A DNA stretch of 34,059 bases from an uncultured Burkholderiales bacterium (GTDB lineage Bacteria; Pseudomonadota; Gammaproteobacteria; Burkholderiales; Usitatibacteraceae). The DNA lies in NCBI GenBank assembly GCA_964598005.1, contig CAZRAL010000028.1:1-34059 (forward strand), written 5' to 3'. The notes beneath the pieces were generated by a model. That model searched no databases. It was not told the DNA's origin and was given only the letters and a program-made list of their open reading frames with translations. Shown here one piece after another: positions 1,502-28,228 of this stretch (position 1 is its first letter; each line of letters starts with the position of its first letter). The translations under genes were made by a program, and so were the position numbers.

Positions 1502-1540
1502 CCGAAAGGTCTTCGGGTTTTTTTGTTTTTGGATGGTTGG
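1502..1540 (+). terminator. Rho-independent terminator (cccggag..cttcggg stem, then T7 gttttt)
   Basis: GC-rich hairpin followed by ttttttt gttttt directly after the small ORF stop. Confidence 0.6.
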
Positions 1541-1624
1541 CCGAGTGATCGAAGACGGGTTCGATGACATGCGGCGAATGTCATGAAACATTTGCCGCCG
1601 TCAAAAATTTTCATGATTGTTTAT

Positions 1625-1698
1625 GGTGATCTTGGTGTAGTGATAGCACATCGCGCTGTGAACGCGAAAGCCTCGGTTTGATTCCGACGATCACCCCA
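1625..1698 (+). tRNA. tRNA-His (anticodon GTG)-like
   Basis: Perfect 7-bp acceptor stem GGTGATC/GATCACC and discriminator C. Perfect 5-bp anticodon stem TCGCG/CGCGA with canonical loop CTGTGAA. T-arm is CTCGG TTTGATT CCGAC. Oddities: T at position 56 (TTTGATT rather than TTCGATT), weak 3-bp D-stem, no G19, no encoded G-1. Confidence 0.5.
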
Positions 1699-1700
1699 AT

Positions 1701-1775
1701 TAGTGTATAACTCAACAGGAAGAGTAGGAGACTCTTAATCTCAATGTTGTGGGTTTGAGTCCCATTGTACCAACC
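1701..1775 (+). tRNA. tRNA-like sequence, anticodon loop CTCTTAA (Lys-CTT-like). Likely degenerate or pseudo.
   Basis: D-arm ACTC/GAGT. Anticodon stem GGAGA/TCTCA with a G:A mismatch. T-arm GTGGG TTTGAGT CCCAT (T56). Encoded 3' ...TGTACCA A CCA. Acceptor 5' strand TAGTGTA pairs poorly (1 mismatch, 2 wobbles). Paralog of the next tRNA-like sequence. Confidence 0.3.
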
Positions 1776-1939
1776 ATTATTTGCTATATTCATCAGTATT
1801 CGATCCACGCGAAAGCGCAGATCAAAAAGAATTCGTTGTAGAACGTATTGCAGCGGGTGAGGCTCGTGAGTCCTCCCTGGTGCGCTATCCCTGAAAATCG
1901 GGAGGGCGTATACCGCGATGCGGAAAGCAGCGGATGTTG

Positions 1940-2011
1940 GGTAATTTAGCTCAGTGGTAGAGCACAGACCTAATCCGTCTGAGGTCGTGGGTTCGAGTCC
2001 CATATTTACCA
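1940..2011 (+). tRNA. tRNA-like sequence with non-canonical anticodon loop CTAATCC (nominal anticodon AAT, C at position 37). Likely pseudo-tRNA, body Ile-GAT-like.
   Basis: Canonical D-arm TAGCTCAGTGGTAGAGC. Perfect anticodon stem CAGAC/GTCTG. T-arm GTGGG TTCGAGT CCCAT. Acceptor GGTAATT/ATTTACC with one T:T mismatch. No encoded CCA. Confidence 0.35.
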
Positions 2012-2012
2012 T

Positions 2013-2086
2013 GTTTCCATAGCTCATTTGGGTAGAGCAATCGGTTCCCAATCGATGGGTAGCGGGTTCGACTCCCGTTGGAAAAG
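2013..2086 (+). tRNA. tRNA-Gly (CCC)-like
   Basis: D-arm GCTC ATTTGGGT AGAGC. Anticodon stem ATCGG/TCGAT with loop TTCCCAA. T-arm GCGGG TTCGACT CCCGT. Acceptor GTTTCCA/TGGAAAA with a G1:A72 mismatch. Only 1 nt from the preceding tRNA-like sequence. Confidence 0.4.
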
Positions 2087-2353
2087 CAAGGTCTCTGTAA
2101 AAGACCATTTAACTGTAGTACCCGGGCCGGCTCCGGTGAAATGTGCCGTTGTTGTTTGATGCATTTCACACCGCCCACCTCGCTTGTGCGCTGCTCGCGC
2201 GCCTATGCGAGACAGTTCAAACCGCTTGTTGCGGGCTAAGGTTATTTGCTGTTTGGAATAACTGAAACCTGTCGGCAAGTGGTGCGGCTGCTCTCCCGTA
2301 TGCGCAACACTGCGTCCGCTGGGTGGCCGGGGGGCCGGACCACATTTACAAGA

Positions 2354-2367: not shown

Positions 2368-3510
2368 ATGTTAAAAATGTTTCATATTAAAAAAGACGAA
2401 CGTGGCTTGCTGTTAAAACAAGGCGACTTCGCTGCAATTTTGACTGCAGGGGAATATACTTTTTTTGATCCGCTGGCTCGCTTGAGGCTGGAAAAATTTT
2501 CCCTCAGCAAAACGCAATTTGATCACCCGTTGGCGGACTATCTGTTGAAAGCCGAGCTGGAAGTTGTTCGACGCGAATTCCACGTGATTCAGCTGGGGCC
2601 AACCGAGGTCGGGTTGCGTTACGAGAACGGTGTGCTGGCCGAATTGCTGGCGCCCAATACCCGCCTTCTATACTGGAAGGGTTACATCGATCTCAAGTTC
2701 GAGGTAGTCAACATCGCTGAGGAATTTGCGGTAACAAGCAAACTTGTTCCGCAAATCTTTACCAATGCACGTACCAAGATCAGCGGGATTGAAGGTGTGT
2801 TTACTGTGCAGGTGCCGCAGTACCACGTAGCGGTGCTGTATGTGGATGGCAAGGTGGCGAAATTATTGGAGCCGGGTGTTTCAGCATTCTATAAGTTCAC
2901 CCGCGATTTGCGTGCCGATATCGTCGATCTGCGCTTGCAGGTGCTGGAGGTGGCTGGGCAGGAAATTTTGACCAGAGATAAGGTCTCGTTACGCGTCAAC
3001 TTGACAGCTGGCTACCGGATCAGCGATGTACTGGCGGCTTATGCCAAACAAGCCAAACCGGTCGACTTCCTGTACAAGGAGTTGCAGTTTGGGCTGCGCG
3101 CTGCCGTAGGTACCCGTACGCTCGATGAATTGCTGGAAAACAAGCATGTCATCGATGAGGTGGTGAACGAGCATATCAAGCGCCGGTTAACCGGCAAGGA
3201 TGGAGGCTACGGCCTCGAAGTCGAGTCAGTTGGAGTAAAGGACATCATCCTGCCGGGCGAGATGAAGGCTATTCTGGCTAAAGTAGTAGAGGCCGAAAAG
3301 GTGGCGCAGGCCAACGTGATTCGTCGTCGTGAAGAAACCGCGGCTACCCGCTCTTTGCTCAACACCGCTCGTGTGATGGAAGACAACCCGACCGCGCTGC
3401 GTTTGAAAGAGCTGGAAACGCTGGAAAAGGTCACCGAGAAGATCGACAAGATCTCCGTATTCGGCGGCCTCGACGGAGTGCTGAAGGATCTGGTGAAAAT
3501 CCGTCCGTAG
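2368..3510 (+). CDS. SPFH/band-7 (stomatin/prohibitin/flotillin/HflKC) domain protein, about 380 aa
   Basis: Long intact ORF. Internal ATG with a strong RBS preferred over the track start at 2323. Band-7-type core followed by an Ala/Glu/Lys-rich C-terminal coiled-coil region (AEKVAQANVIRRREETAATRSLLN). Confidence 0.6.
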   Translation: MLKMFHIKKDERGLLLKQGDFAAILTAGEYTFFDPLARLRLEKFSLSKTQFDHPLADYLLKAELEVVRREFHVIQLGPTEVGLRYENGVLAELLAPNTRLLYWKGYIDLKFEVVNIAEEFAVTSKLVPQIFTNARTKISGIEGVFTVQVPQYHVAVLYVDGKVAKLLEPGVSAFYKFTRDLRADIVDLRLQVLEVAGQEILTRDKVSLRVNLTAGYRISDVLAAYAKQAKPVDFLYKELQFGLRAAVGTRTLDELLENKHVIDEVVNEHIKRRLTGKDGGYGLEVESVGVKDIILPGEMKAILAKVVEAEKVAQANVIRRREETAATRSLLNTARVMEDNPTALRLKELETLEKVTEKIDKISVFGGLDGVLKDLVKIRP

Positions 3511-3598: not shown

Positions 3599-3976
3599 CT
3601 AGCGAAATGCCCACCGTTGTGAACTTATAAAATTAATGCTCAGCCCAGCAATGGAGCCTGCAGCCACCCCTAACCAAGGATACTGCTGTACTTCGCTGAA
3701 AGTGACAATGACGATTACAAAAACGGCATAATTTACCAGTGCCCCTAGGATCATCAAGGCAAGGTAACGTGACCATTCGTTGTATCCAGCAGGCTGCTTT
3801 ACATTGAAGGTATAGCGCCGATTCAGAAACCAGGTTGCACTGGCTGCCGCTATAAATGAAATAATGCGTCCCAGATATAAATTCAGTCCGGCTTTGGATA
3901 CCAGAATTTGCAGGCCCCCAGCATCGATGACAAAACCCAGCGTACCCACCAGGCAAAAACGCAATAGTTGGCTCAA
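3599..3976 (-). CDS. gtrA: GtrA-family small membrane protein (flippase-associated), about 125 aa from a TTG start overlapping the upstream stop
   Basis: LLRFCLVGTLGFVIDAGGLQILV ... FIAAASATWFLNRRYTF is the GtrA signature. 3-4 TM helices. Start inferred as TTG 3976 overlapping TGA 3975-3973 (TTGA coupling), because the track ORF N-terminus (MPEH...) is antisense shadow of the upstream gene. Confidence 0.6.
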   Translation of the reverse strand: MSQLLRFCLVGTLGFVIDAGGLQILVSKAGLNLYLGRIISFIAAASATWFLNRRYTFNVKQPAGYNEWSRYLALMILGALVNYAVFVIVIVTFSEVQQYPWLGVAAGSIAGLSINFISSQRWAFR

Positions 3977-4911
3977 AGCGAAGCCTGGGACGACTTGATT
4001 TGCAGATAAATCATGCGCTTCATTTCGTGTCGGCCGCGCGAGACGGTATCCAGAATCAATCCGCAGGCCAGGGATAAAAATGCCAGCAGCGTCATTCCGG
4101 TTACCAAAATTGCAGTCGGAAATCTCGGTACTAACCCGGTTTCGGCATAAGTCAAGAATAGCGGAACGGCCAGTATCAATGCAGCCAAACCAAGCAGCAT
4201 GCTCAGGCAACCGAAAAATGCCAGAGGGCGCTCCTGCTTGAACAGTTTCACAATGGTTATCAGGATGCGCATGCCATCACGATAGGTATTGAGCTTGCTC
4301 ACCGAGCCCTCCGGGCGGGATTGGTACGGGGTATCAATTTCATCGATGGGCATGCGCAATTCAAGGGCATGGACCGTCAATTCCGTTTCAATTTCGAAGC
4401 CGTTGGATAAAGCGGGAAACGATTTCACAAAGCGCCGCGAAAATACCCGATAGCCGGAAAGAATGTCGGTAAATGCCCGTCCGAATAACAATCCAACACA
4501 TCCCGTCAATACACGATTCCCTGCACGATGCCCTTTGCGGTAGGCGGCCTGTTCCTCGGTGACTCACTTCCCCACCACCATATCAAGATTTTCGTTAATG
4601 AGCCGGGCGACCATTTTTTCCGCGCTTGTGGCGTGGTAGGTATCATCGCCATCCACCAGCACATAGACATCGGCCTCGACATCTGCAAACATGCGGCGTA
4701 CGACATTGCCTTTGCCTTGCAACGTTACCCGGCGAACCTGTGCCCCTGCCTGCGTAGCGACTTCGATGGTTCGATCACGCGAATTGTTGTCAAAAACATA
4801 AATTTCCGCATGCGGCAATGCGGCGCGAAAATCGCGGACAACCGAACCAATAGCGATTTCTTCGTTGTAACAGGGAATTAATACCGCTACCCGAAATGTT
4901 GAACCAGTCAT
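3973..4911 (-). pseudogene. gtrB: GtrB/ArnC-like family-2 glycosyltransferase (polyprenyl-phosphate sugar transferase) interrupted by an in-frame TGA at 4566-4564
   Basis: Track ORFs 4564-5259 (N part: VAVLIPCYNEE, VFDNNSRDRT, VLVDGDD, DMVVGK*) and 3973-4509 (C part: SGYRVF motif plus 2 C-terminal TM helices) are in the same reading frame. They are separated only by a TGA, giving the read-through sequence ...DMVVGK*VTEEQAAYRKGHRAGNRVLTGCVGLLFG. The ATG at 4911 overlaps the upstream TGA (ATGA). Confidence 0.65.
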
Positions 4912-6593
4912 TTTTTTCCCAAAAAACCAAAGAAGCCGAATACTACAGCAGGAATCAGGGCCATTGCCAAAGGGACAACTGGCGATAAATAGAGCATGTT
5001 GTTGCTGGGAATGGAAGTGGCTTCGAGCAACCCCAGCAACACTACGCGACTGGCCACCGCCGCAACCAAAGCGGAAGCTATAGCCAGCATGGCACTGGCA
5101 CGGCGTTTCCATATTGCTACCGCCACCCACACCCCCCACAAGAAGAGTGCAACCGGAATGCCATATTGTGAAATCCCGGCTTCTGCCGTTGCCAGAAATC
5201 GGGCGATATTGATGCGATTGACCAACTTGAAGCAATCCTGATTGGGCGGGTTCAGGCACATTTCATCGACCGAATATCCCGACACTGCAACCGGCCCGTT
5301 GGTCATCCAGGTCACAAAGGCCAATTGTTCGGGCGACCCGAGGCTAGGCACAACGCCCACTGGGGCGCCATCAAGGGTAAGCAGCGTGGTGAATACTTCC
5401 TTGCTTGCTGCCAGTGTGTCCGCCCAATAATGGTCGCGCCAGGGCGGCACCATTGTGTCGCGGCGGGGCAGGCATTCGCCTGCATGCTGCTTGCAGGCCT
5501 CGTCAATTTCCCGCGCCAGCCGCAAATAAAATGCTTTGGCTGCCTTCGCATTCCGGTAGTGGCCAGCCGCCGCTACGGCGTCGCGCAAAGCCCACATAAA
5601 CCACCCCGATAAAATTTCCGGACAAGATTCGATGTGCAAGTGTTTACAACCGATATCCCGCCACGTCGTTCCAATTTCTCCCTCAAAATAGGGTTTTAAT
5701 TCGCGTGCTGCGGCACTGAATCGATAGGCGCGTTCGCGGGCATCTTTGGGGAATACCACATAACGTTGCCAATGGTCATGCCTGATTCGGCTCAAGGCGC
5801 CATAACCGGCCTGAAAGTCAGCCGAGTGGAAATCGTTGTTACGAAATACCCTATATTTCTGATAATTGTGCGTATTGACGATCCCGATGAGCAACGATGC
5901 TGAAATGACCGGCAACGCCATGAAATATAGTAGCTGCCGATAAGAACGTAACATCGATCGATGCGCTATCAGCCAGTAGCCAAGCAAAATCGCGAGGGGA
6001 GGGAAAAGCCAGGCTCCCTCTTCGCGGGTCAACCAGTAAATGCCCCCGGTAATCCCCAGAGTAAAAAGCAGTGGCCTTTTTTGGTCAATTTCTTCCTTTA
6101 GCGTTGCATTTTTTTGTTCTACCCAGCAGCGAATGGCCAGCGCCAGCAAAAAGAGCGTCAAACTGACATAAAGCCCTTCGCGCACCACTCTCCCCCCTAC
6201 GCCGTGTGTCCATGCGGTCGGGATAAAGGCCAGCAGTATAAAGGTACTCAACGCAATCCACTTGTTTGCGCCAACCCGCGCAACCACAGTGGAAAAATAC
6301 ATGGCTGCGAATAAATACAGAATGTGCTCGGTGAGTTTGAGCGGCAACCCGCTGAAATGATTAAGCAGGAGAAAAACAGGATAAGCCACTCCCTTGGCAT
6401 GGGTTAAATTGTTATAGTCCCCGAGCCAGTGGCCGCCCCCTATTTCCGCTGCCAATTTGACGAATAACATATCGTCGTAGCCCGCGCCGCCCACCGCAAA
6501 AATCGGGAAGGCTGCCCGAATAAACAGGGAAAGCAAAAATATCAGGACTATTAAGGCGTAGTACCCGTTGATTCTAATGTGTGTGTGTTTCAT
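4908..6593 (-). CDS. Large integral-membrane glycosyltransferase (GT-C fold, Gtr type-specific / ArnT-like), 561 aa
   Basis: N-terminal multi-TM block, central soluble (periplasmic-type) domain of about 200 aa, and C-terminal TM helices. Third gene of a gtrA-gtrB-gtrX-type arrangement. Confidence 0.5.
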   Translation of the reverse strand: MKHTHIRINGYYALIVLIFLLSLFIRAAFPIFAVGGAGYDDMLFVKLAAEIGGGHWLGDYNNLTHAKGVAYPVFLLLNHFSGLPLKLTEHILYLFAAMYFSTVVARVGANKWIALSTFILLAFIPTAWTHGVGGRVVREGLYVSLTLFLLALAIRCWVEQKNATLKEEIDQKRPLLFTLGITGGIYWLTREEGAWLFPPLAILLGYWLIAHRSMLRSYRQLLYFMALPVISASLLIGIVNTHNYQKYRVFRNNDFHSADFQAGYGALSRIRHDHWQRYVVFPKDARERAYRFSAAARELKPYFEGEIGTTWRDIGCKHLHIESCPEILSGWFMWALRDAVAAAGHYRNAKAAKAFYLRLAREIDEACKQHAGECLPRRDTMVPPWRDHYWADTLAASKEVFTTLLTLDGAPVGVVPSLGSPEQLAFVTWMTNGPVAVSGYSVDEMCLNPPNQDCFKLVNRINIARFLATAEAGISQYGIPVALFLWGVWVAVAIWKRRASAMLAIASALVAAVASRVVLLGLLEATSIPSNNMLYLSPVVPLAMALIPAVVFGFFGFLGKK

Positions 6594-13331: not shown

Positions 13332-14963
13332 TCACCAGGAAATTCGAGTCGTTAATATATTGGATGAAAATAATGTCCTCAACCTTGTTGCAGATTGAGT
13401 TTCGCCAAAGGAAGGGTGCCATGTGGCGCTGTCCAGATTTAGATCTTCGCTTACTACTTCAATATGCTTCGATTGTCGGGGAGCCAGCAATTTTACCCGG
13501 GAGTGACTTGATTTTTCGACTTGAATAACAGGGTGAATCAGCAACCGCGCCTCCGCAATTCTAGGATGCCCCTCTAATACATCTTGTATTTCCAAAGCGT
13601 TTCCGCTTAGTCGCCATTCTCGCCAATGGGTAACTCGACCGGGTAATCGACAATATCCGTCATGTGCACCCCGCAACCAAATGAACTCTATGTCATTGCC
13701 CCAGGCGACATCATGGACGCGCGCACGCCTAGCAACGCGAAAACTGCCCCAGACTTCGGATGAATTTTGCCCATCTACTATAACCGTATTATGTGCTGCG
13801 GTACCGCGCTGAAACAACCGCTCTGATGATACGTTGTATGTAGACGTACCTGTATCAATAATGACTCTTTGATCATGCAAGGATAATTCGAAACTCAACG
13901 TATCCGCATGGGCATGGCCGGGTAGATAATCTGGCCCAATAGGTCCCACATCGGCAATGAGCACTGCCTCAGCAGTTTGCAAACGAACATAACCTGATTC
14001 AGGCAAGGCATGTAAGGGGCCGCTGAGATTCAAATCAACGTCCACTTCGAGCAACTGGGCCCAGCCAGCCAGGGTTTTCAATCGTGGCGCAACCCCGAAG
14101 GCAGAATCATTAAACAGGGCAATATCGCCATCGGGATGGGTCATAATTGCTAACCAACGTAACATACGAGAGGCTGTTGAATGCCAAACAGAGATATCTT
14201 GATCCGGTAGGGCGCAAGGAAATACATGCGATAGCGCTAGTAATTCCAAAAGATCCGCTAAAACGATGGCATGATACATAGGGCTACGCTCGAAATGCCC
14301 GCCATCCATCAATATCTGTTCGTCAAGCTCGCGCCGTATTAATTTCAATCCCCTTGTACGCCATTGCAATGCTTCAGGCCCATCAAAAAATACCCCGGCA
14401 AAAACCAGTGCCTTGGCATTAGCCCACAAGTGGTTACCCAGCAAATGGTATTCCAGTTTTTTAGATAATAGGCGGATCTGAATAGCAAGGCTATGAGTAG
14501 CTTGTGGAGAAAGAATATGTTCCCGGAGGGTCCACGTAATCCAGTTTACTATCCGCAGCGAAAGGGGATAGGGCTCCCATCCATTACCGTAGCCGGGAGG
14601 GTTTTCGTTGATCCAACGTTCGATGATTCCTAAGTGCCAAGCTTGGCGTAGCTCACCATTAAGTGCATTCAAGTCGTCGAAATAATGAAGGTTATAAAGC
14701 CAAAGCTTGTCAACAACAGGATCGTTCCAATACGTTTTTTCCTGAACATTTTTTTCGACTCCGAGAAAACGAAACGTAATTGGCCCCATCATGACTGGGG
14801 AACGCCAAGGTGACAGATTCCAAGTTGAATCAGACTGCCTGCGTTGCGGGGCAGCAGAAAAATCAATGTGTGGCCGGTAAAATTTGTGCCAGAATCGAGC
14901 CCAGATTTGTGGGGACCGCAACCATCGCACGGTCTGCCACAAACGAAAAAACTTGTTGAGCAT
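13332..14963 (-). CDS. Heparinase II/III-like family protein, 543 aa
   Basis: Length and conserved blocks (WLYNLHYFDDL, GNHLWANAKALVFAG, HPDGDIALFNDSA, PGHAHADTLSFEL) match heparinase II/III-like proteins found in LPS/O-antigen clusters. Confidence 0.7.
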   Translation of the reverse strand: MLNKFFRLWQTVRWLRSPQIWARFWHKFYRPHIDFSAAPQRRQSDSTWNLSPWRSPVMMGPITFRFLGVEKNVQEKTYWNDPVVDKLWLYNLHYFDDLNALNGELRQAWHLGIIERWINENPPGYGNGWEPYPLSLRIVNWITWTLREHILSPQATHSLAIQIRLLSKKLEYHLLGNHLWANAKALVFAGVFFDGPEALQWRTRGLKLIRRELDEQILMDGGHFERSPMYHAIVLADLLELLALSHVFPCALPDQDISVWHSTASRMLRWLAIMTHPDGDIALFNDSAFGVAPRLKTLAGWAQLLEVDVDLNLSGPLHALPESGYVRLQTAEAVLIADVGPIGPDYLPGHAHADTLSFELSLHDQRVIIDTGTSTYNVSSERLFQRGTAAHNTVIVDGQNSSEVWGSFRVARRARVHDVAWGNDIEFIWLRGAHDGYCRLPGRVTHWREWRLSGNALEIQDVLEGHPRIAEARLLIHPVIQVEKSSHSRVKLLAPRQSKHIEVVSEDLNLDSATWHPSFGETQSATRLRTLFSSNILTTRISW

Positions 14964-23299: not shown

Positions 23300-25162
23300 T
23301 TAAAGTCTAGCGCCATAAATTTTCCGCCACAACTCAAACTGCACCAGAGAAAACAAACGCTCTCCGTTGCTTCGCCCTTGATCCTGACCTTTCAGCAATG
23401 AATGTACCGTAGAGGTATCGAACAGGCAGTCTCGGCTCGACAAGGTATCCCAGAACAGTTCCCGGAACGGTCCGGCCTTGAGCCACTCAGCCAATGGAAT
23501 TGAGAAACCCTGCTTTCGCTGTGAATCAAACTCGGGCGGTAGCACCCGCGCAGCAAGCCGTTTAAGTAGTATTTTCCTTTTGCTGACTGTTGCTTTCAGA
23601 TGGGAAGGCACTTGCCCAAAGGCGAACTCGATGATCCGAAGGTCGAGCAACGGTGCCCGCACCTCCAAAGAATTAAGCATGCTGGCCCGATCTACCTTCA
23701 CCAGAATGTCTTCCGCTAAGTAGTCTTGGAAATCCATCCGCGTCGACCGCTGTAGCAAATCTGGTTGGCTTGGAACGCGACCTGCGCAGATGGCCTCGGC
23801 GACAATTGGGTGTCCCGGATGGCCTCGCATCAATCGACTGCGTGTAGTTGCATCGAAATAGTTGGCAATCAAGGGCAGACTGTGGCCTAAGTCCATGTCC
23901 AACCCTTGCAGGTAGTTTCTTCCCTTTAGACCGACTGGCAGCCATTGCTCGGCCACTGCCGAAACACTGTGTCGTAACCAGCTTGGAATATGCGCCAACT
24001 GCTGCTGCATCCACAGTAATCGGCTGTGATGTTTATAGCCACCAAACAGTTCATCGCCGCCATCACCGCCCAAGGCAACGCTGCAGTGCTGGCGTACCAG
24101 ACTACTGACTAGCCAAGTAGGAAACATGGAGGAATCCACCATGGGTTCATCGAACTGGCGCGCAAGAGTAGGCAACAGGTCGACGGTAGTGGGTTCAGCC
24201 ATCATTTCTATATGCTCGGTTCCAAAAAAGCGAGCAATCAGCCGTGCGTGTGGGGTTTCGTCCAGATTGCCGTGTCCAGGAAAACCGATGCTGAAAGTGC
24301 GTACTTGACGTGATCTGCGTACAGCCATAGCTGTGATCAGACTAGAATCGACCCCACCGCTTAGGAGAACACCTACTGGCACATCCGCTACCAACTGCCG
24401 ACCCACTGCATCTTCCAACAGGGACTCCAGTTCATCGAGCAGGGAGGCCTCATTGATTGCTCCCGCAACGGATTGCAACTCCGGCAACTGCCAATAGCGC
24501 CAGACCTTGGTCACACCCTGATGCAGATCAAAAGTCATGGCATGCGCCGGTGGCAGCTTGTGATAACCCAGCAGGATGCACCGATCTCCAGGGACAAAGC
24601 CCATGGTCAAGTAGCAGTCCATGGCCTCCGGGTCGATGCGCCTAGGCAAGCCTGGGTGTGCTAGCAGTGCCTTTAACTCCGAAGCATAGAAAAGCCTTCC
24701 GCGATCAAGTCGATAAAACAGCGGCTTCTCTCCCGTCCGATCACGGGCAAGAAAGAGTCGCTGGTGGCGAGTATCGTAAATGGCAAAGGCAAACATTCCA
24801 TTAAGATGCGAAAGGCAATCTGTACCCCACTCGGCGTAGGCAGCTAAAAGCACTTCGGTATCGCTGTGGGAACGAAATCCATGTCCGCAAAGTTCGAGTT
24901 CATTACGTAACTCAGCGAAGTTGTATATCTCACCATTAAAGACGATGACAATATTCCGAGAATAAAAATGCATAGGCTGATGCCCAAGTGGAGATAAATC
25001 CAAAATGGACAATCTACGATGAGCCATGCCCACACGGGAATCCTCGGACCACCACTCCCCGGCATCATCTGGGCCACGATGTTTCATGGTGTCGCGACCG
25101 ATGCGCAACCAAGAACGATTAGTTTGCCGGTCTATGGAAGCGACACCAACTATACCGCACAT
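23300..25162 (-). CDS. Asparagine synthetase B-like glutamine-dependent amidotransferase (WbpS-type), paralog 1
   Basis: MCGIVG N-terminal nucleophile Cys2. SGGVDSS PP-loop. About 620 aa. Start placed at MCGIVG (25162) rather than the track's 25195. Confidence 0.8.
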   Translation of the reverse strand: MCGIVGVASIDRQTNRSWLRIGRDTMKHRGPDDAGEWWSEDSRVGMAHRRLSILDLSPLGHQPMHFYSRNIVIVFNGEIYNFAELRNELELCGHGFRSHSDTEVLLAAYAEWGTDCLSHLNGMFAFAIYDTRHQRLFLARDRTGEKPLFYRLDRGRLFYASELKALLAHPGLPRRIDPEAMDCYLTMGFVPGDRCILLGYHKLPPAHAMTFDLHQGVTKVWRYWQLPELQSVAGAINEASLLDELESLLEDAVGRQLVADVPVGVLLSGGVDSSLITAMAVRRSRQVRTFSIGFPGHGNLDETPHARLIARFFGTEHIEMMAEPTTVDLLPTLARQFDEPMVDSSMFPTWLVSSLVRQHCSVALGGDGGDELFGGYKHHSRLLWMQQQLAHIPSWLRHSVSAVAEQWLPVGLKGRNYLQGLDMDLGHSLPLIANYFDATTRSRLMRGHPGHPIVAEAICAGRVPSQPDLLQRSTRMDFQDYLAEDILVKVDRASMLNSLEVRAPLLDLRIIEFAFGQVPSHLKATVSKRKILLKRLAARVLPPEFDSQRKQGFSIPLAEWLKAGPFRELFWDTLSSRDCLFDTSTVHSLLKGQDQGRSNGERLFSLVQFELWRKIYGARL

Positions 25163-25194
25163 ATTTTTTACAATTCTTAATTGGTCGGCTATCA

Positions 25195-26223
25195 CTACTC
25201 TTCAATCGCTTTACGAAAGCCTGCAATCATGCGATCGAGAGTTCGATTCCGCGAATATTGAATATATGCATTATGGCCTAATACCTGTACTAGACTTGGA
25301 TTGTTACAAACCCACTCAAGTGCAGTAGTTAGATCATTTTCACTTTCAAGAATAAGTGCATTGTGATTGTGATCCAAATTCATAAACTCAGGACCGTGGC
25401 GTCCTTCGCGCAAGGTTACAACAGGTACACCGTATGCAAAGCTGTGTAACACTCCGAGCCCAACTGGACCTGGGGATATATAAGCATATGCACGGGAGAA
25501 AAGGGTTGCTAACATGGCATGATCCTGAACTGAACCATGAAAAGTAATCTTCTGCGCAACGCCAAGTTCACTTGCAAGCTGTCGAAGCTCACCCTCAAGC
25601 ACACCTCCCCCTACAATATCAAGCACAATATGATCAGCGATACGTCCCTGTAATTCTAAGAATGTGCGAATGATTAAATCAATACGTTTTCTGGACTGCA
25701 ACCTCCCGACAAATAGCAAGCTGCATTTATCTGCATTACTCGTGTCGGAATGATTGGGAACGTGGATCGTATTTGGCGCTACGACGACCTTTGATAGATC
25801 AACCCCACGCTCGGACATGCGAGCAATCTCTTCTTCCCCATACAACAAAATTCGATCTGCCTTCTTCATTAAGAAATCACGAGTTCTATTAGCAAGCCCG
25901 TTAGCACTATAGCGATGACCCCACAAAATCCACTTAGCGTGGCGTTGTCCAACAAAGGGCAGAATATATGCAGGCCACCTCAGATCAAACATTGAGATTA
26001 CAGCGTCAAAATGCTGTCGTGCTTTATAGATCGAAGCAATATTTTGCAAATGAAACGGTCCAACTTTCACTTGTGGAATAATAATTTCAGCATAGTGGCT
26101 GAATATCGCCTCCCCCTCCTTGTTGGCATGCATTACTGTAACTAGATAATGCTTCGTCAATTCATTTATTACTGGGCGACGGTACTCTGTTAAGGCGTCT
26201 TGCAGGATCAAGATCGACTTCAT
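25195..26223 (-). CDS. Glycosyltransferase family 4, about 342 aa
   Basis: GT4 C-terminal domain (LLFVGRLQSRKRIDLI ... GVPVVTLREG). Start at MKSILIL (26223) with AAGGG 7 nt upstream preferred. Track ORF extends to 26331, overlapping the upstream gene. Confidence 0.65.
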   Translation of the reverse strand: MKSILILQDALTEYRRPVINELTKHYLVTVMHANKEGEAIFSHYAEIIIPQVKVGPFHLQNIASIYKARQHFDAVISMFDLRWPAYILPFVGQRHAKWILWGHRYSANGLANRTRDFLMKKADRILLYGEEEIARMSERGVDLSKVVVAPNTIHVPNHSDTSNADKCSLLFVGRLQSRKRIDLIIRTFLELQGRIADHIVLDIVGGGVLEGELRQLASELGVAQKITFHGSVQDHAMLATLFSRAYAYISPGPVGLGVLHSFAYGVPVVTLREGRHGPEFMNLDHNHNALILESENDLTTALEWVCNNPSLVQVLGHNAYIQYSRNRTLDRMIAGFRKAIEE

Positions 26224-26305: not shown

Positions 26306-28228
26306 CTATGCTGTGTCACCTGAAGGTACATCTAGGAACCGCCTAAACCACAATTCCGTACTCAACAAGCGAAACAGCAGTGTGCTATGGTCTCGCTTGC
26401 CCTGACGGTGCGTATCAATGAGTCTTCGCAGGCCAGACTTATCAAATAGTCCACGCTCAAGACTGCGTGTGCTCAGAAGAATATCGACTGCACTTTTGGC
26501 TCCTGTAAACTTCTTGCGGAATTGTGATGTAATCGGTGAGTTGAAACCGAATTTGGTACGGTTATAAAGAATCCAATCGGGCACAAGTCCACACATTGCT
26601 TGTCTGTGGATATATTTGCCTACTCCAAGCTTGATTTTGAAATCACTAGGCAGACTCCATACAAATTCGACCAGCCGGTGATCCAAGAATGGCATACGCG
26701 ACTCAATGCTGTTCGCCATTGAAATGGCATCACCATAATGCAAAAGATTCACCAGACCACCAGAATGTTGACGCCGTAGCGTTTCCGTAACCCACCCTTT
26801 ATCTTCCTCATCTGGCAGTGGCGGATAGTCGCGCATTCGGTCATAGTCACGTAGTGCAGGGCCAAAGGCCTCTGACACTCCTGTCAATTGCTGGTATAGC
26901 ATGGATAACCAAGGAAGGCGATTACTCGCCCCACGTAGCGCCATAAATACACTGTAACGAAGCTTATAGGTTTTGCTATATTCCTCAACTGATGCAAAAG
27001 CTTCTCGGTATCTCCCAGCAGCAATCAGGTCACCGAAACTTTGCCAGATTATGTTGGCGACATAGCCGCCAAGAAGTTCGTCGGCACCTTGCCCTTCAAG
27101 CAACACTGTCACGTGCTTTCGTGCTTTTCTGAGCAGCTGCATCAATGGAAAGACAGCAGGCGAACTGTTCCCACTCTCCAGATGCCAGACGATATGTGAG
27201 AGCTGATTGACAAACTCTGAATAGTCAGTATCGACGACATGTGAGTGGAGCTTTAGTTCATGCGCTACGCGACAAACAGAAGTCGACTCATCAATCGTGT
27301 TGCCGGCCTCAACATATATCGAACGGTTCTGAATGAGTCCCTCTTCCGATGAGAAACGTGATGTGAAGCAATGATGCGGTGCAGGATCAATGTGTTGCAT
27401 CGCATAAACGATCGAGGAAGAATCAAGGCCAGAAGAAAGCGTAACACCTAGCGGTACATCGCTGCGCATCCGAATGTATACAGCATCATGGAACAGTCTC
27501 GCATATTCTTGACGCGCATCTTCGAATGATAGATTTTTAATTATCTGCTGTGGATAATGCCAATAACGTGAAATGTAGATTTTGCCACTACGAATCGAAA
27601 GATTATGCCCAGGCTGAAGACGTTTGACCTTCTTAAACCAAGTTTCGGGGTGTTGCGCGCCAACTGAAGTCCTGCAAAAATTAGAAATTATGTTGTAGTC
27701 AGGTTCTGCGAGTTGGGGAGCATAGGCCAAGATTGCCTTGATTTCTGATGCGAAATAGAACTTCCCGTCGAGCAAAGCATAGTTAAAAGGCTTCTCGCCA
27801 TAACGATCACGGGAGCAAAATAGCGTTCGCTCCAGTCGGTCGTAAATCGCGAAGCCCCACATGCCATTGAAGCGCTGCACACATGCTTCTCCCCAGCGTA
27901 TGTAGGCCTGGAGCAGAACTTCTGCATCACCTAAGGTGTGAAAGGCCACACCAGCGGCAATTAGTTCAGAGCGAAGCTCTAAGTAATTAAATATTTCACC
28001 GTTGAAGACAAGCCAGTAGCGATTATGCGCGATGATCGGCTGGTTGCTGGCATCACTAAGGTCTATAATAGATAATCGAGTGTGGCCGAATAACGCATCG
28101 TTTCCAACTTGCTTCCAGGCCTGTGCATCGGGGCCGCGATGCTTAAGTGCTTCCAGCGCTCGTTTGACTCGACGTTCGTCAAATGATCCAACTCCATCTA
28201 TATTTATAATTCCAAAAATTCCGCACAT
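26306..28228 (-). CDS. Asparagine synthetase B-like glutamine-dependent amidotransferase (WbpS-type), paralog 2, 640 aa
   Basis: MCGIFGI N-terminus. SSGLDSS PP-loop. AsnB C-terminal domain. Confidence 0.85.
   Translation of the reverse strand: MCGIFGIINIDGVGSFDERRVKRALEALKHRGPDAQAWKQVGNDALFGHTRLSIIDLSDASNQPIIAHNRYWLVFNGEIFNYLELRSELIAAGVAFHTLGDAEVLLQAYIRWGEACVQRFNGMWGFAIYDRLERTLFCSRDRYGEKPFNYALLDGKFYFASEIKAILAYAPQLAEPDYNIISNFCRTSVGAQHPETWFKKVKRLQPGHNLSIRSGKIYISRYWHYPQQIIKNLSFEDARQEYARLFHDAVYIRMRSDVPLGVTLSSGLDSSSIVYAMQHIDPAPHHCFTSRFSSEEGLIQNRSIYVEAGNTIDESTSVCRVAHELKLHSHVVDTDYSEFVNQLSHIVWHLESGNSSPAVFPLMQLLRKARKHVTVLLEGQGADELLGGYVANIIWQSFGDLIAAGRYREAFASVEEYSKTYKLRYSVFMALRGASNRLPWLSMLYQQLTGVSEAFGPALRDYDRMRDYPPLPDEEDKGWVTETLRRQHSGGLVNLLHYGDAISMANSIESRMPFLDHRLVEFVWSLPSDFKIKLGVGKYIHRQAMCGLVPDWILYNRTKFGFNSPITSQFRKKFTGAKSAVDILLSTRSLERGLFDKSGLRRLIDTHRQGKRDHSTLLFRLLSTELWFRRFLDVPSGDTA

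What the first reader, a model, noticed from the sequence alone, without database searches (positions are those of the whole stretch)
1611..2100. Tandem array of four tRNA-like genes with non-canonical features (T56, G1:A72, anticodon loop CTAATCC)
Two tightly spaced pairs (1625-1775 and 1940-2086, separated by 1-2 nt within pairs and about 160 bp between pairs) encode tRNA-like sequences. The first is His-GTG-like with a perfect acceptor stem but TTTGATT in the T-loop. The second has a CTT anticodon, a poor acceptor stem, and an encoded CCA. The third has an otherwise good cloverleaf but anticodon loop CTAATCC, meaning a nominal AAT anticodon that bacteria do not use and a pyrimidine at position 37. 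The fourth is Gly-CCC-like with a G1:A72 mismatch. The second and third share a near-identical T-arm and 3' region, so they are diverged duplicates. The array sits at the boundary between an accessory glycan island full of IS elements and ordinary genes. The pattern resembles horizontally acquired tRNA arrays or decaying integration-site duplicates rather than core tRNA genes.
Basis: seen in the sequence. Interest (0 to 1): 0.6.

Follow-up and report, generated by a model that had tools for sequence, protein, structure and literature searches.

The report
tRNA-array relic plus tRNA-shaped leader RNA
Two of the four tRNA-like genes are leftovers of a larger accessory tRNA gene array; the other two are most likely not decoding tRNAs but tRNA-shaped parts of an apparently undescribed structured RNA of about 0.5 kb that sits in front of one stomatin-like gene in many beta- and gammaproteobacteria.

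Summary

They are two different things.

(1) tRNA1 (His-GUG) and tRNA2 (Lys-CUU) are remnants of an accessory tRNA array. Relatives carry 6-20 genes at the same site. A 24-nt tRNA-Tyr stub at 1531-1554 marks a deletion of about 560 bp. The His gene is conserved. The Lys gene is decaying and is absent from the closest relative.

(2) tRNA3 ("A") and tRNA4 ("B") are tRNA-shaped domains of a conserved structured RNA. Its order is a three-way-junction domain S (1831-1935), A, B, a hairpin (2090-2106), then a domain L of about 210 nt (2129-2336). B lies 244-670 nt upstream of the same SPFH/slipin gene (2368-3510) in 76 loci found through the protein. It was also present in all 64 testable loci found through the S motif, and all 50 loci with enough downstream DNA had the slipin. 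S and L show strong compensatory covariation and match no Rfam family. B keeps C32, U33, A37 and A38, but its "anticodon" takes 35 different triplets. A's loop is often a GNRA tetraloop.

I found no integrase or att repeat. The mechanism is inferred: cis processing or regulation of the slipin transcript.

The parts
1502..1530 (+). Intrinsic-terminator-like hairpin with a T-run that closes the upstream unit. It is conserved at the 5' border of the array in L003 and L004.
   Evidence: stem 1502-1516 followed by GTTTTTTTGT; alignment.
1531..1554 (+). 5' stub (24 nt) of a tRNA-Tyr gene, left by a deletion of about 560 bp that removed the rest of Tyr plus Leu-TAG and Phe-GAA.
   Evidence: identical to L003 1201-1224, and the window sequence resumes at L003 1783. 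Searches show Tyr, Leu and Phe present in L003.
1625..1698 (+). tRNA1: array-type tRNA-His(GUG). It has G-1:C73 and an encoded CCA, and a non-canonical elbow (no G18G19, U56) with a 4-bp T-stem. It is conserved and probably functional as a supernumerary tRNA.
   Evidence: It is nearly identical in L003, L004 and L009. Across the array His genes, a non-canonical D-loop and a non-canonical T-loop occur together.
1701..1776 (+). tRNA2: decaying positional orthologue of the array tRNA-Lys(CUU). It has an AT-rich acceptor stem with mismatches and an encoded CCA.
   Evidence: 47.1 bits, 40% G+C; not called by ARAGORN; absent from L003; 66-70% identical to the Lys genes of relatives.
1831..1935 (+). 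Domain S: a conserved three-way-junction RNA domain immediately 5' of A. Its helices are 1831-1839/1927-1935, 1845-1847/1919-1921, 1853-1856/1913-1916, the hairpin 1859-1875, and the hairpin 1880-1911.
   Evidence: 96.4% of cells are paired against 90.6% when shuffled; 14 pairs carry compensatory change; 0/500 shuffles reach the observed score. There is no Rfam match.
1940..2011 (+). It derives from a CAU (Met/Ile2-type) tRNA and its loop is unconstrained across relatives.
2013..2086 (+). Only a 4-bp acceptor stem is conserved across the family. The anticodon-loop frame is canonical but the triplet is free to vary (CCC here).
2090..2106 (+). Small hairpin GGTCT-CTGTAAA-AGACC directly after B. 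Its position is conserved, its sequence covaries, and it is often capped by a GNRA-type loop and followed by a few T residues.
2129..2336 (+). Domain L: a multi-helix leader domain of about 210 nt, closed by the helix 2129-2133/2332-2336. Inner helices include 2172-2183/2318-2329 and 2199-2216/2287-2305.
   Evidence: 91.3% of cells are paired against 78.9% when shuffled; 29 of 37 pairs carry compensatory change; 0/500 shuffles reach the observed score. There is no Rfam match.
2368..3510 (+). The SPFH/stomatin-like 'slipin' gene (380 aa, no transmembrane segment evident by eye, N-terminal beta-rich extension). It is the invariable downstream partner of S-A-B.

Best explanation
The region combines two features.

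(1) Array relic. tRNA1 and tRNA2 are relics of a lineage-specific, same-strand accessory tRNA array of the kind described as long tRNA arrays (L-arrays). Relatives have 6-20 genes at this site. This genome lost most of them by deletion, keeps a conserved non-canonical tRNA-His, and keeps a degenerating tRNA-Lys(CUU).

(2) tRNA-shaped domains of a larger RNA. tRNA3 (A) and tRNA4 (B) are probably not decoders. They are two abutting tRNA-shaped domains inside a conserved structured RNA of about 0.5 kb, ordered S - A - B - hairpin - L, that lies directly upstream of the slipin gene on the same strand. Selection keeps their L-shape: the D-arm, the T-arm, the anticodon stem and the loop frame. It has released the anticodon triplet (35 different triplets in B) and even the whole loop in A, which is often a GNRA tetraloop. 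This explains the 'impossible' AAT/C37 loop and the Gly-like CCC without Gly identity elements.

Inferred mechanism (not shown). The array, S-A-B, L and the slipin gene are transcribed as one unit, as tRNAs and tufB are in the E. coli thrU-tufB operon. A and B would act in cis as tRNA mimics that recruit tRNA-processing enzymes (RNase P at the A/B junction, RNase Z or RNase E). This would detach the tRNA part and define or stabilise the slipin mRNA. L may additionally act as an attenuator-like switch.
For: Shown by tool results:
- Four cloverleaf matches.
- Relatives carry arrays of up to about 20 tRNAs at the same site.
- The tRNA-Tyr stub and the deletion junction.
- tRNA2 is orthologous to the array Lys gene and is lost in L003.
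- B is found in 76 of the loci recovered through the slipin protein, always 244-670 nt before the slipin ATG.
- Reverse test through the S motif alone: 64/64 loci have B and 50/50 have the slipin gene.
- B cloverleaf covariation: the anticodon stem and a 4-bp acceptor stem covary; the D-stem is invariant.
- B loop statistics: 133/148 loops are 7 nt; C32, U33, A37 and A38 are each 91-94% conserved; positions 34-36 have entropies of 1.4-1.9 bits and 35 different triplets.
- A loops include CGAAAG, GGCAAC, TGAAAG and other 6- or 8-nt loops.
- A and B abut or overlap by 0-2 nt.
- S and L covary far beyond the shuffled and slid controls.
- No Rfam family matches S or L.
- No terminator-like site was found between tRNA2 and A.

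From established knowledge: tRNA-mRNA co-transcripts processed by RNase P and RNase E are known, for example the thrU-tufB operon.
Against: - There are no expression or end-mapping data, so co-transcription and processing are inferred.
- No sigma-70-like promoter was recognised.
- The hairpin after B, with its short T-run, could terminate the tRNA transcript, which would make L a separate 5' UTR.
- A pure processing role does not obviously explain why B keeps a canonical U33/A37 anticodon-loop frame.
- B has only a 4-bp conserved acceptor stem and usually no CCA, which makes it a poor canonical RNase P/Z substrate.
- The L domain of Xanthomonadales (Dyella) looks different, and the S profile detects only 55 of about 80 loci.
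- Whether the array tRNAs are supernumerary could not be checked, because the window is a 34-kb MAG contig.
Confidence: 0.6

Rival explanations
1. S-A-B-(hairpin)-L is a stand-alone non-coding RNA that works in trans with the slipin protein as a ribonucleoprotein. The tRNA-shaped domains would be protein- or enzyme-binding handles, as in bacterial Y RNA (YrlA)-Rsr or in vault RNA with the SPFH-shouldered major vault protein.
For: - RNA and gene are strictly linked in both search directions, while the neighbouring AAA gene is present in only 14/79 loci.
- By my reading of the alignment, 16 of 26 L domains are followed by a run of at least 4 T. Terminator-like hairpins sit at the 3' end of L in L027 and L026.
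- The slipin has no transmembrane segment evident by eye and has a confidently modelled N-terminal beta-rich extension.
- Foldseek aligns major vault protein over 420-429 columns (E 1.7e-9).
- There is a weak YrlA-like hit across the A/B junction (23.8 bits, E 0.025).
Against: - The YrlA hit is far below the gathering score of 69.
- No RNA-binding domain was identified.
- The T-runs lie in an AT-rich region before the ribosome-binding site, and the window itself has only TTT there.
- There is no direct evidence of binding.
Confidence: 0.2
2. All four are functional decoding tRNAs of a horizontally acquired array. They would simply supply extra or unusual decoding capacity, including rare anticodons.
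For: - All four exceed the Rfam tRNA gathering score.
- B keeps a canonical 7-nt loop with U33 and A37.
- Some relatives have A with a CAU anticodon, a full acceptor stem and CCA.
- In a few Steroidobacteraceae-type loci B has a full acceptor stem and CCA, for example L063.
- L-array tRNAs of Anabaena are aminoacylated in vivo (PMC8421152).
Against: - B's triplet differs between close relatives on the same body, for example CCC, ATT, GAT and GAA.
- Only 4 acceptor pairs are conserved, there is no CCA, and B overlaps A's 3' end.
- tRNA4 lacks the Gly identity set (U73, G1:C72, C2:G71, G3:C70), as read from the sequence.
- tRNA3 has A34 and C37.
- Many A loops are 6-nt GNRA-capped.
- A and B persist in genomes that have no array (L046, L047, Dyella).
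Confidence: 0.08
3. The genes are pseudo-tRNAs or att-site duplications left by integrating mobile elements at the edge of the glycan island.
For: - tRNA2 is clearly degenerating and a tRNA-Tyr stub exists.
- The genes downstream of the slipin differ between relatives: a glycan cluster here, and AAA or other genes elsewhere.
- IS3 elements are present in the contig.
Against: - There is no tyrosine or serine integrase in the window.
- The tRNA 3' halves have no direct repeat anywhere in the window.
- The S motif gives 0 hits in viral contigs.
- A and B are conserved with covariation across two proteobacterial classes, which a pseudogene would not be.
Confidence: 0.04
4. B (and perhaps A) is a decoy or sensor for anticodon-loop-targeting nucleases from toxins, colicins or phage defence. 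Its variable triplet would track whichever tRNA is attacked in each lineage, and cleavage would switch on the slipin gene.
For: - B has a canonical, conserved loop frame combined with a highly variable triplet.
- It is associated with arrays of non-canonical back-up tRNAs.
Against: - The triplet variability is only modestly above that of other unpaired positions and is centred on GAT with mostly one- or two-step neighbours. This fits neutral drift.
- No nuclease gene is conserved in the neighbourhood.
- PADLOC finds no defence family for the slipin.
Confidence: 0.06

Closest known systems
[quoted passage not shown]
   Same: Many same-strand, densely packed tRNA genes. Content varies between relatives. 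Members include non-canonical and pseudogene-like genes. Many members encode their CCA.
   Different: The window keeps only two array genes plus a stub. The array sits at a fixed chromosomal site, always upstream of S-A-B and one slipin gene. The L-array papers I read do not mention this link. No homing endonuclease or ICE context was seen.
tRNA-mRNA co-transcription units such as E. coli thrU-tyrU-glyT-thrT-tufB (from my own knowledge)
   Same: tRNA genes lie directly upstream of a protein gene on the same strand with no strong terminator between them. tRNA-processing RNases would release the mRNA.
   Different: In the tufB operon the tRNAs are ordinary decoders. Here the last two have lost decoding constraints and are embedded between two additional covarying RNA domains.
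Bacterial Y RNA-like YrlA (Rfam RF02553) with Rsr
   Same: A non-coding RNA with a tRNA-like domain encoded next to its partner protein gene.
   Different: The match is only 23.8 bits against a gathering score of 69. No Rsr/TROVE gene was found. There are two complete cloverleaf modules instead of one partial tRNA-like domain.
T-box leader RNAs
   Same: A long structured 5' leader whose logic involves a tRNA shape. A possible terminator alternative sits at its 3' end.
   Different: The tRNA shape is in cis, not a trans ligand. No triplet in L covaries with B's anticodon. No T-box Rfam hit was found. The hosts are Proteobacteria.
Eukaryotic vault particle (major vault protein plus vault RNA)
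   Same: A cage-forming protein with an SPFH-like shoulder paired with a small structured RNA. Foldseek aligns MVP over nearly the whole slipin model.

Membership tests
Canonical decoding bacterial tRNA | Cloverleaf that scores above the Rfam RF00005 gathering threshold. | tested here: met
   46.3, 47.1, 63.6 and 50.6 bits against a threshold of 29. ARAGORN calls three of the four.
Canonical decoding bacterial tRNA | A 7-bp acceptor stem kept among orthologues, with a 3' end that can be released (CCA or a free 3' trailer). | tested here: not met
   In B only 4 acceptor pairs are conserved or covary across 74 loci. A and B abut or overlap by 0-2 nt. tRNA3 and tRNA4 encode no CCA. tRNA2 has an A2.C71 mismatch plus two G.U pairs.
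Canonical decoding bacterial tRNA | A 7-nt anticodon loop with U33 and a purine at 37, and an anticodon conserved among orthologues. | tested here: not met
   tRNA3 has the loop CTAATCC with C37. A loops are 4-9 nt in relatives. B keeps the loop frame but carries 35 different triplets. tRNA1 and tRNA2 do meet this feature.
Canonical decoding bacterial tRNA | Identity elements that match the anticodon (His: G-1:C73; Gly: U73 with G1:C72, C2:G71, G3:C70). | tested here: inconclusive
   Read from the sequence. tRNA1 has G-1:C73, so it meets the His set. tRNA4 has G73, G1.A72, U2:A71 and U3:A70, so it does not meet the Gly set. The identity rules come from general knowledge of E. coli-type synthetases.
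L-array / tRNA array unit | At least 20 tRNA genes at a density of at least 2 per kb (definition in PMC4758250), all on one strand. | tested here: not met
   The window has 4 genes plus a stub. Relatives reach 19-21 same-strand genes within about 5 kb (L023, L029, L049). The window therefore holds a relic of such an array, not an array.
L-array / tRNA array unit | Supernumerary to a housekeeping tRNA set, with patchy presence among relatives. | tested here: inconclusive
   Presence is patchy: arrays range from 0 to about 20 genes among slipin loci of 65-77% identity. Redundancy with a housekeeping set could not be tested on a 34-kb contig.
tRNA-linked integration site (att duplication) | An adjacent integrase and a direct repeat of the tRNA 3' end. 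| tested here: not met
   There is no phage-type integrase. The 3' halves of tRNA3 and tRNA4 are unique in the window at up to 3 mismatches.
T-box-like tRNA-sensing leader | A specifier triplet in the leader complementary to the tRNA anticodon. | tested here: not met
   the best column window has 5 matches against a null mean of 5.6 (fraction of permutations at or above the observed value 0.88).
Any curated RNA family (Rfam 15) for S or L | A covariance-model match. | tested here: not met
   (E up to 5), 19 and 68: only tRNA hits. The YrlA hit scores 23.8 bits against a threshold of 69.
RNase P / RNase Z cis substrate (tRNA-mimic processing signal) | Cleavage at the tRNA-like 5' or 3' ends in vivo or in vitro. 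| not testable with these tools
   Needs end mapping or an in vitro RNase P assay. The conserved elbow (G18G19 and the T-loop) that such enzymes recognise is present in B.
Known anti-phage defence systems (PADLOC) | A profile match of the linked protein. | tested here: not met
   the slipin has no hit. The facultative AAA neighbour gives only P-loop-level hits.

The most novel reading that the evidence does not exclude
S-A-B-L is the dedicated RNA subunit of a cytoplasmic, vault-like or Y-RNA-like ribonucleoprotein. The particle would be built by the soluble SPFH (slipin) cage protein, with two tRNA-shaped domains as handles. It might store, chaperone or survey tRNAs, which would explain why accessory tRNA arrays accrete at this locus.
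Probability: 0.12. Interest if true: 0.9.

Novelty: new variant of a known kind. Interest (0 to 1): 0.7.

Why it matters
For annotation. 'tRNA' genes called at this locus, such as Ile-AAT, Gly-CCC, Stop-TTA, SeC-TCA, Asn-ATT or '???', should not be read as decoding capacity, suppressors or genetic-code variants. ARAGORN makes such calls at this locus in dozens of genomes, including cultured Dyella and Rhodanobacter.

For biology. This is a large covarying RNA of about 0.5 kb with two embedded tRNA-shaped domains. It is absent from Rfam and strictly linked to one SPFH protein across two proteobacterial classes. It is a new and tractable example of tRNA mimicry in bacterial gene organisation, and it offers a functional handle on an uncharacterised, apparently soluble stomatin-like protein. 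It also shows that long accessory tRNA arrays can be anchored to a fixed chromosomal site and grow or shrink there.

Tried and rejected
- Phage origin. A blastn search of the region against phage genomes gave only generic tRNA similarity. Viral-contig scans gave 0 hits for the CTAATCC arm and 0 hits for the S motif. A B-core pattern hit only ordinary tRNA-Thr(UGU) genes in two phage tRNA arrays, with no slipin or S nearby.
- Specifier-like pairing between B's anticodon and the leader. No enrichment.
- Integration-site model. No integrase and no repeats.
- tRNA2 as a duplicate of tRNA3. Rejected in favour of orthology with the array Lys gene.
- Defence-system membership. No PADLOC hit for the slipin.
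- The AAA ATPase as an obligate partner. Rejected: it is present in only 14/79 loci.
- N-terminal domain of the slipin. No Pfam hit even at E up to 10. Fold searches give SPFH first and MVP only weakly.
- Promoter scans found nothing convincing.
- Literature searches for tRNA-like with slipin or SPFH found nothing relevant. One search failed on a syntax error.
- The minus-strand ORF 1611-2108 (165 aa), which gene callers also call in L001 and L003, is an artefact that overlaps the tRNA genes.
- tRNAscan-SE was not available, so Rfam's tRNA model and ARAGORN were used instead.
Full report
OBSERVATION

The sequence, ARAGORN and the Rfam tRNA model agree that four tRNA-shaped genes lie on the + strand.
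- tRNA1: 1625-1698, His-GUG, 46.3 bits.
- tRNA2: 1701-1776, Lys-CUU, 47.1 bits, not called by ARAGORN.
- tRNA3: 1940-2011, loop CTAATCC, 63.6 bits.
- tRNA4: 2013-2086, CCC, 50.6 bits.

I add some details.
- tRNA1 has G-1:C73 followed by CCA. Its D-loop has no GG, its T-stem has only 4 bp, and U7 is unpaired.
- tRNA2 has 40% G+C and also carries a G27.A43 mismatch.
- tRNA3 and tRNA4 encode no CCA.
- tRNA4 lacks the bacterial Gly identity set.

GENOMIC SETTING

The window is a complete 34-kb contig of a betaproteobacterial (Burkholderiales-like) MAG. Upstream of the tRNAs lie a DUF1266 gene, a small ORF and a terminator. Downstream lies a 380-aa SPFH/Band_7 'slipin' gene at 2368-3510. After that comes a polysaccharide-synthesis cluster on the opposite strand (3.6-31.9 kb), and IS3-type transposase genes appear only at 31.9-34 kb. 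There is no phage-type integrase. The tRNA 3' ends have no repeat in the window.

THE FIRST PAIR IS A RELIC OF A VARIABLE tRNA ARRAY

I fetched the DNA around slipin homologues and compared the site.
- The 94%-identical locus L003 has Tyr, Leu-TAG, Phe, His, A and B, but no Lys.
- The 82%-identical locus L004 has 14 tRNAs.
- Other Burkholderiales MAGs have up to about 20 tRNAs, all on the slipin strand.

Window 1531-1554 is identical to the first 24 nt of the L003 tRNA-Tyr gene. The window sequence then resumes at L003 position 1783. A deletion of about 560 bp therefore removed the rest of Tyr plus Leu and Phe.

tRNA1 is almost invariant between the window, L003, L004 and L009. Across the array His genes, a non-canonical D-loop always goes with a non-canonical T-loop, and a canonical one with a canonical one. 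This suggests a co-adapted elbow and a gene that still works.

tRNA2 aligns without gaps at 66-70% identity to the Lys-CUU gene that follows His in relatives. Its acceptor stem has become AT-rich and mismatched, and the gene is gone from L003. It is decaying.

The 18/20 identity between the T-arms of tRNA2 and tRNA3 does not make them duplicates.

Such arrays correspond to the long tRNA arrays described in the literature (PMC8421152, PMC4758250). In related loci the array tRNAs score 31-68 bits, against 61-73 bits for non-array tRNAs on the other strand.

THE SECOND PAIR IS SOMETHING ELSE

In nearly every slipin locus ARAGORN reports a last pair, or a single gene, of abutting tRNA-like genes about 270-500 nt before the slipin ATG. 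The reported anticodons are bizarre and inconsistent: ATT, GAT, TAT, GCA, TTA 'stop', TCA 'SeC', AAT, and two-base 'anticodons'.

Distribution of B. A profile of the tRNA4 type ('B') finds it in 76 loci from Beta- and Gammaproteobacteria, including cultured Dyella and Rhodanobacter. It is always 244-670 nt upstream of the slipin gene. The few loci without it are cut off too close to the gene.

Distribution of A. The tRNA3 type ('A') abuts or overlaps B by 0-2 nt in most Burkholderiales and Xanthomonadales loci.

Fold of B. RNAalifold on 74 B sequences gives a cloverleaf with these properties:
- an invariant D-stem;
- a near-invariant T-arm;
- a strongly covarying anticodon stem;
- only a 4-bp covarying acceptor stem.

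Loop of B. Over 148 loci, 133 B loops are 7 nt long, with C32, U33, A37 and A38 each at 91-94%. Positions 34-36 have entropies of 1.90, 1.74 and 1.38 bits and carry 35 different triplets. GAT is the commonest.

Loop of A. A has the loop CTCATAA (CAU) in roughly a third of loci. Elsewhere it has 4-9-nt loops, several of them GNRA tetraloops closed by a pair, such as CGAAAG, GGCAAC and TGAAAG.

These patterns show selection for the tRNA shape but not for an anticodon. The window's 'AAT/C37' and 'CCC' are two states of unconstrained loops.

A LARGER STRUCTURED RNA

The 163-nt spacer before A and the 280-nt leader after B are conserved among relatives, in places better than the array tRNAs.

Domain S (window 1831-1935).
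- It is found immediately 5' of A, or of B where A is missing, in about 40 loci with a single-sequence search and in 55 with a profile. These include loci with no array and a few gammaproteobacterial loci.
- It folds as a three-way junction. There are 31 pairs, 14 of them with compensatory changes. 96.4% of cells are paired, against 90.6% in shuffles and 34-51% when the partners are slid. No shuffle out of 500 reaches the observed covariation.

Hairpin. After B comes a short covarying hairpin (window 2090-2106).

Domain L (window 2129-2336).
- It is closed by a long-range helix.
- There are 37 pairs, 29 of them with compensatory changes. 91.3% of cells are paired, against 78.9% in shuffles and 27-48% when slid. 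No shuffle out of 500 reaches the observed score.

Neither S nor L matches any Rfam 15 family, even at E up to 5.

Independent test of the linkage. I scanned metagenome contigs with a 22-nt S motif alone and recovered 111 stretches, of which 80 were fetched. All 64 with enough downstream DNA contain B at the expected place. All 50 with at least 900 nt downstream contain the slipin gene. Viral contigs contain none. The neighbouring AAA ATPase gene seen in L004 is present in only 14/79 loci. The conserved unit is therefore the RNA plus the slipin gene.

MECHANISM

Shown:
- the anatomy of the unit;
- the covariation of S, B and L;
- the strict RNA-gene linkage;
- the release of the anticodon from constraint.

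Inferred: the array, S-A-B, L and the slipin gene form one transcription unit. No terminator-like site lies between tRNA2 and A. A and B would act as cis tRNA mimics for tRNA-processing enzymes, as in tRNA-mRNA operons such as thrU-tufB (my own knowledge).

Two leads point elsewhere.
- In several loci the 3' strand of the L closing helix can instead form a local hairpin followed by a T-run. Examples are L027 (CGGGAGGCCGGATTCCCG followed by ATTTTTTT) and L026. By my reading of the alignment, 16 of 26 L domains are followed by at least 4 T. This fits either an attenuator or the 3' end of a stand-alone RNA.

An RNP reading therefore remains possible but unproven.

A T-box-like pairing between B's triplet and L was tested and not found. 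PADLOC gives no defence assignment.

COMPARISON AND NOVELTY

Accessory tRNA arrays and tRNA-like domains in other RNAs (tmRNA, YrlA, viral TLS) are known. I found no record of this S-A-B-L unit or of its link to a slipin gene, either in Rfam or in my full-text searches.

I classify the finding as a new variant of a known kind: tRNA mimicry within a leader or non-coding RNA, next to an L-array relic. If the RNP reading were true it would be categorically new.

LIMITS

- All evidence is comparative.
- Nearly all the sequences come from MAGs and metagenomes.
- No expression data or tRNAscan-SE scores were available.
- Redundancy with housekeeping tRNAs could not be checked.
- The L domain appears to differ in Xanthomonadales.

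Noticed in passing
window 1831-1935 and 2129-2336: Two covarying structured RNA domains (S and L) flank the second tRNA-like pair. Neither matches any Rfam family.
   Followed up: yes
[not shown]
   Followed up: partly
window 3973-5259 (- strand); compare L003 4127-5065: The family-2 glycosyltransferase gene that is a single 312-aa ORF in L003 is split in the window into ORFs of 178 aa and 231 aa (178 and 115 aa as called in L001). This is probably a frameshifted or disrupted gene.
   Followed up: no
L005 4714-4950; also L022, L024, L031, L032 and L038, between L and the slipin gene: Some relatives carry a LuxR/GerE-type HTH ORF of about 78 aa inserted between the L domain and the slipin gene.
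   Followed up: partly
L027 6928-6955; L026 6940-6963: A terminator-like hairpin with a T-run overlaps the 3' strand of the L closing helix. The two structures would be mutually exclusive, as in an attenuator or riboswitch expression platform.
   Followed up: partly
L014 5157-5328; L048 8225-8397; L057 12193-13386; L069 2707-2864: In some lineages tRNA genes also follow the slipin gene, so the gene is embedded within tRNA clusters.
   Followed up: no
Array tRNA-His genes in the window, L003, L004, L007, L008, L009, L015, L027 and L054, compared with L018, L019 and L069: In the array His genes, loss of the G18G19 D-loop motif always goes with a non-canonical T-loop (TTTGATT or GTGCGAS). Copies with GG have TTCGA. 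This points to a co-varying, altered tRNA elbow.
   Followed up: partly
window 1983-2038: A weak Y-RNA-like (YrlA, RF02553) hit of 23.8 bits (E 0.025) spans the A/B junction. It is far below the gathering score and probably reflects generic tRNA-likeness.
   Followed up: partly
window 23300-25195 and 26306-28228 (- strand); 13332-14963: The polysaccharide cluster contains two asparagine-synthase-like (AsnB) paralogues, three methyltransferases and a heparinase II/III-like gene. IS3 transposase genes (rve, HTH_Tnp_1) lie at 31.9-33.0 kb, and another IS fragment sits at the contig end.
   Followed up: no
window 1611-2108 (- strand); L001 1586-1987; L003 1487-2161: A long minus-strand ORF, called as a gene in public assemblies, overlaps the tRNA-like genes. 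It is almost certainly spurious.
   Followed up: partly
L197 4394-4468; L198 10889-10964 (IMG/VR contigs): Ordinary tRNA-Thr(UGU) genes in two phage tRNA arrays share the B core sequence. B therefore probably descends from a Thr/Ile-type tRNA.
   Followed up: partly
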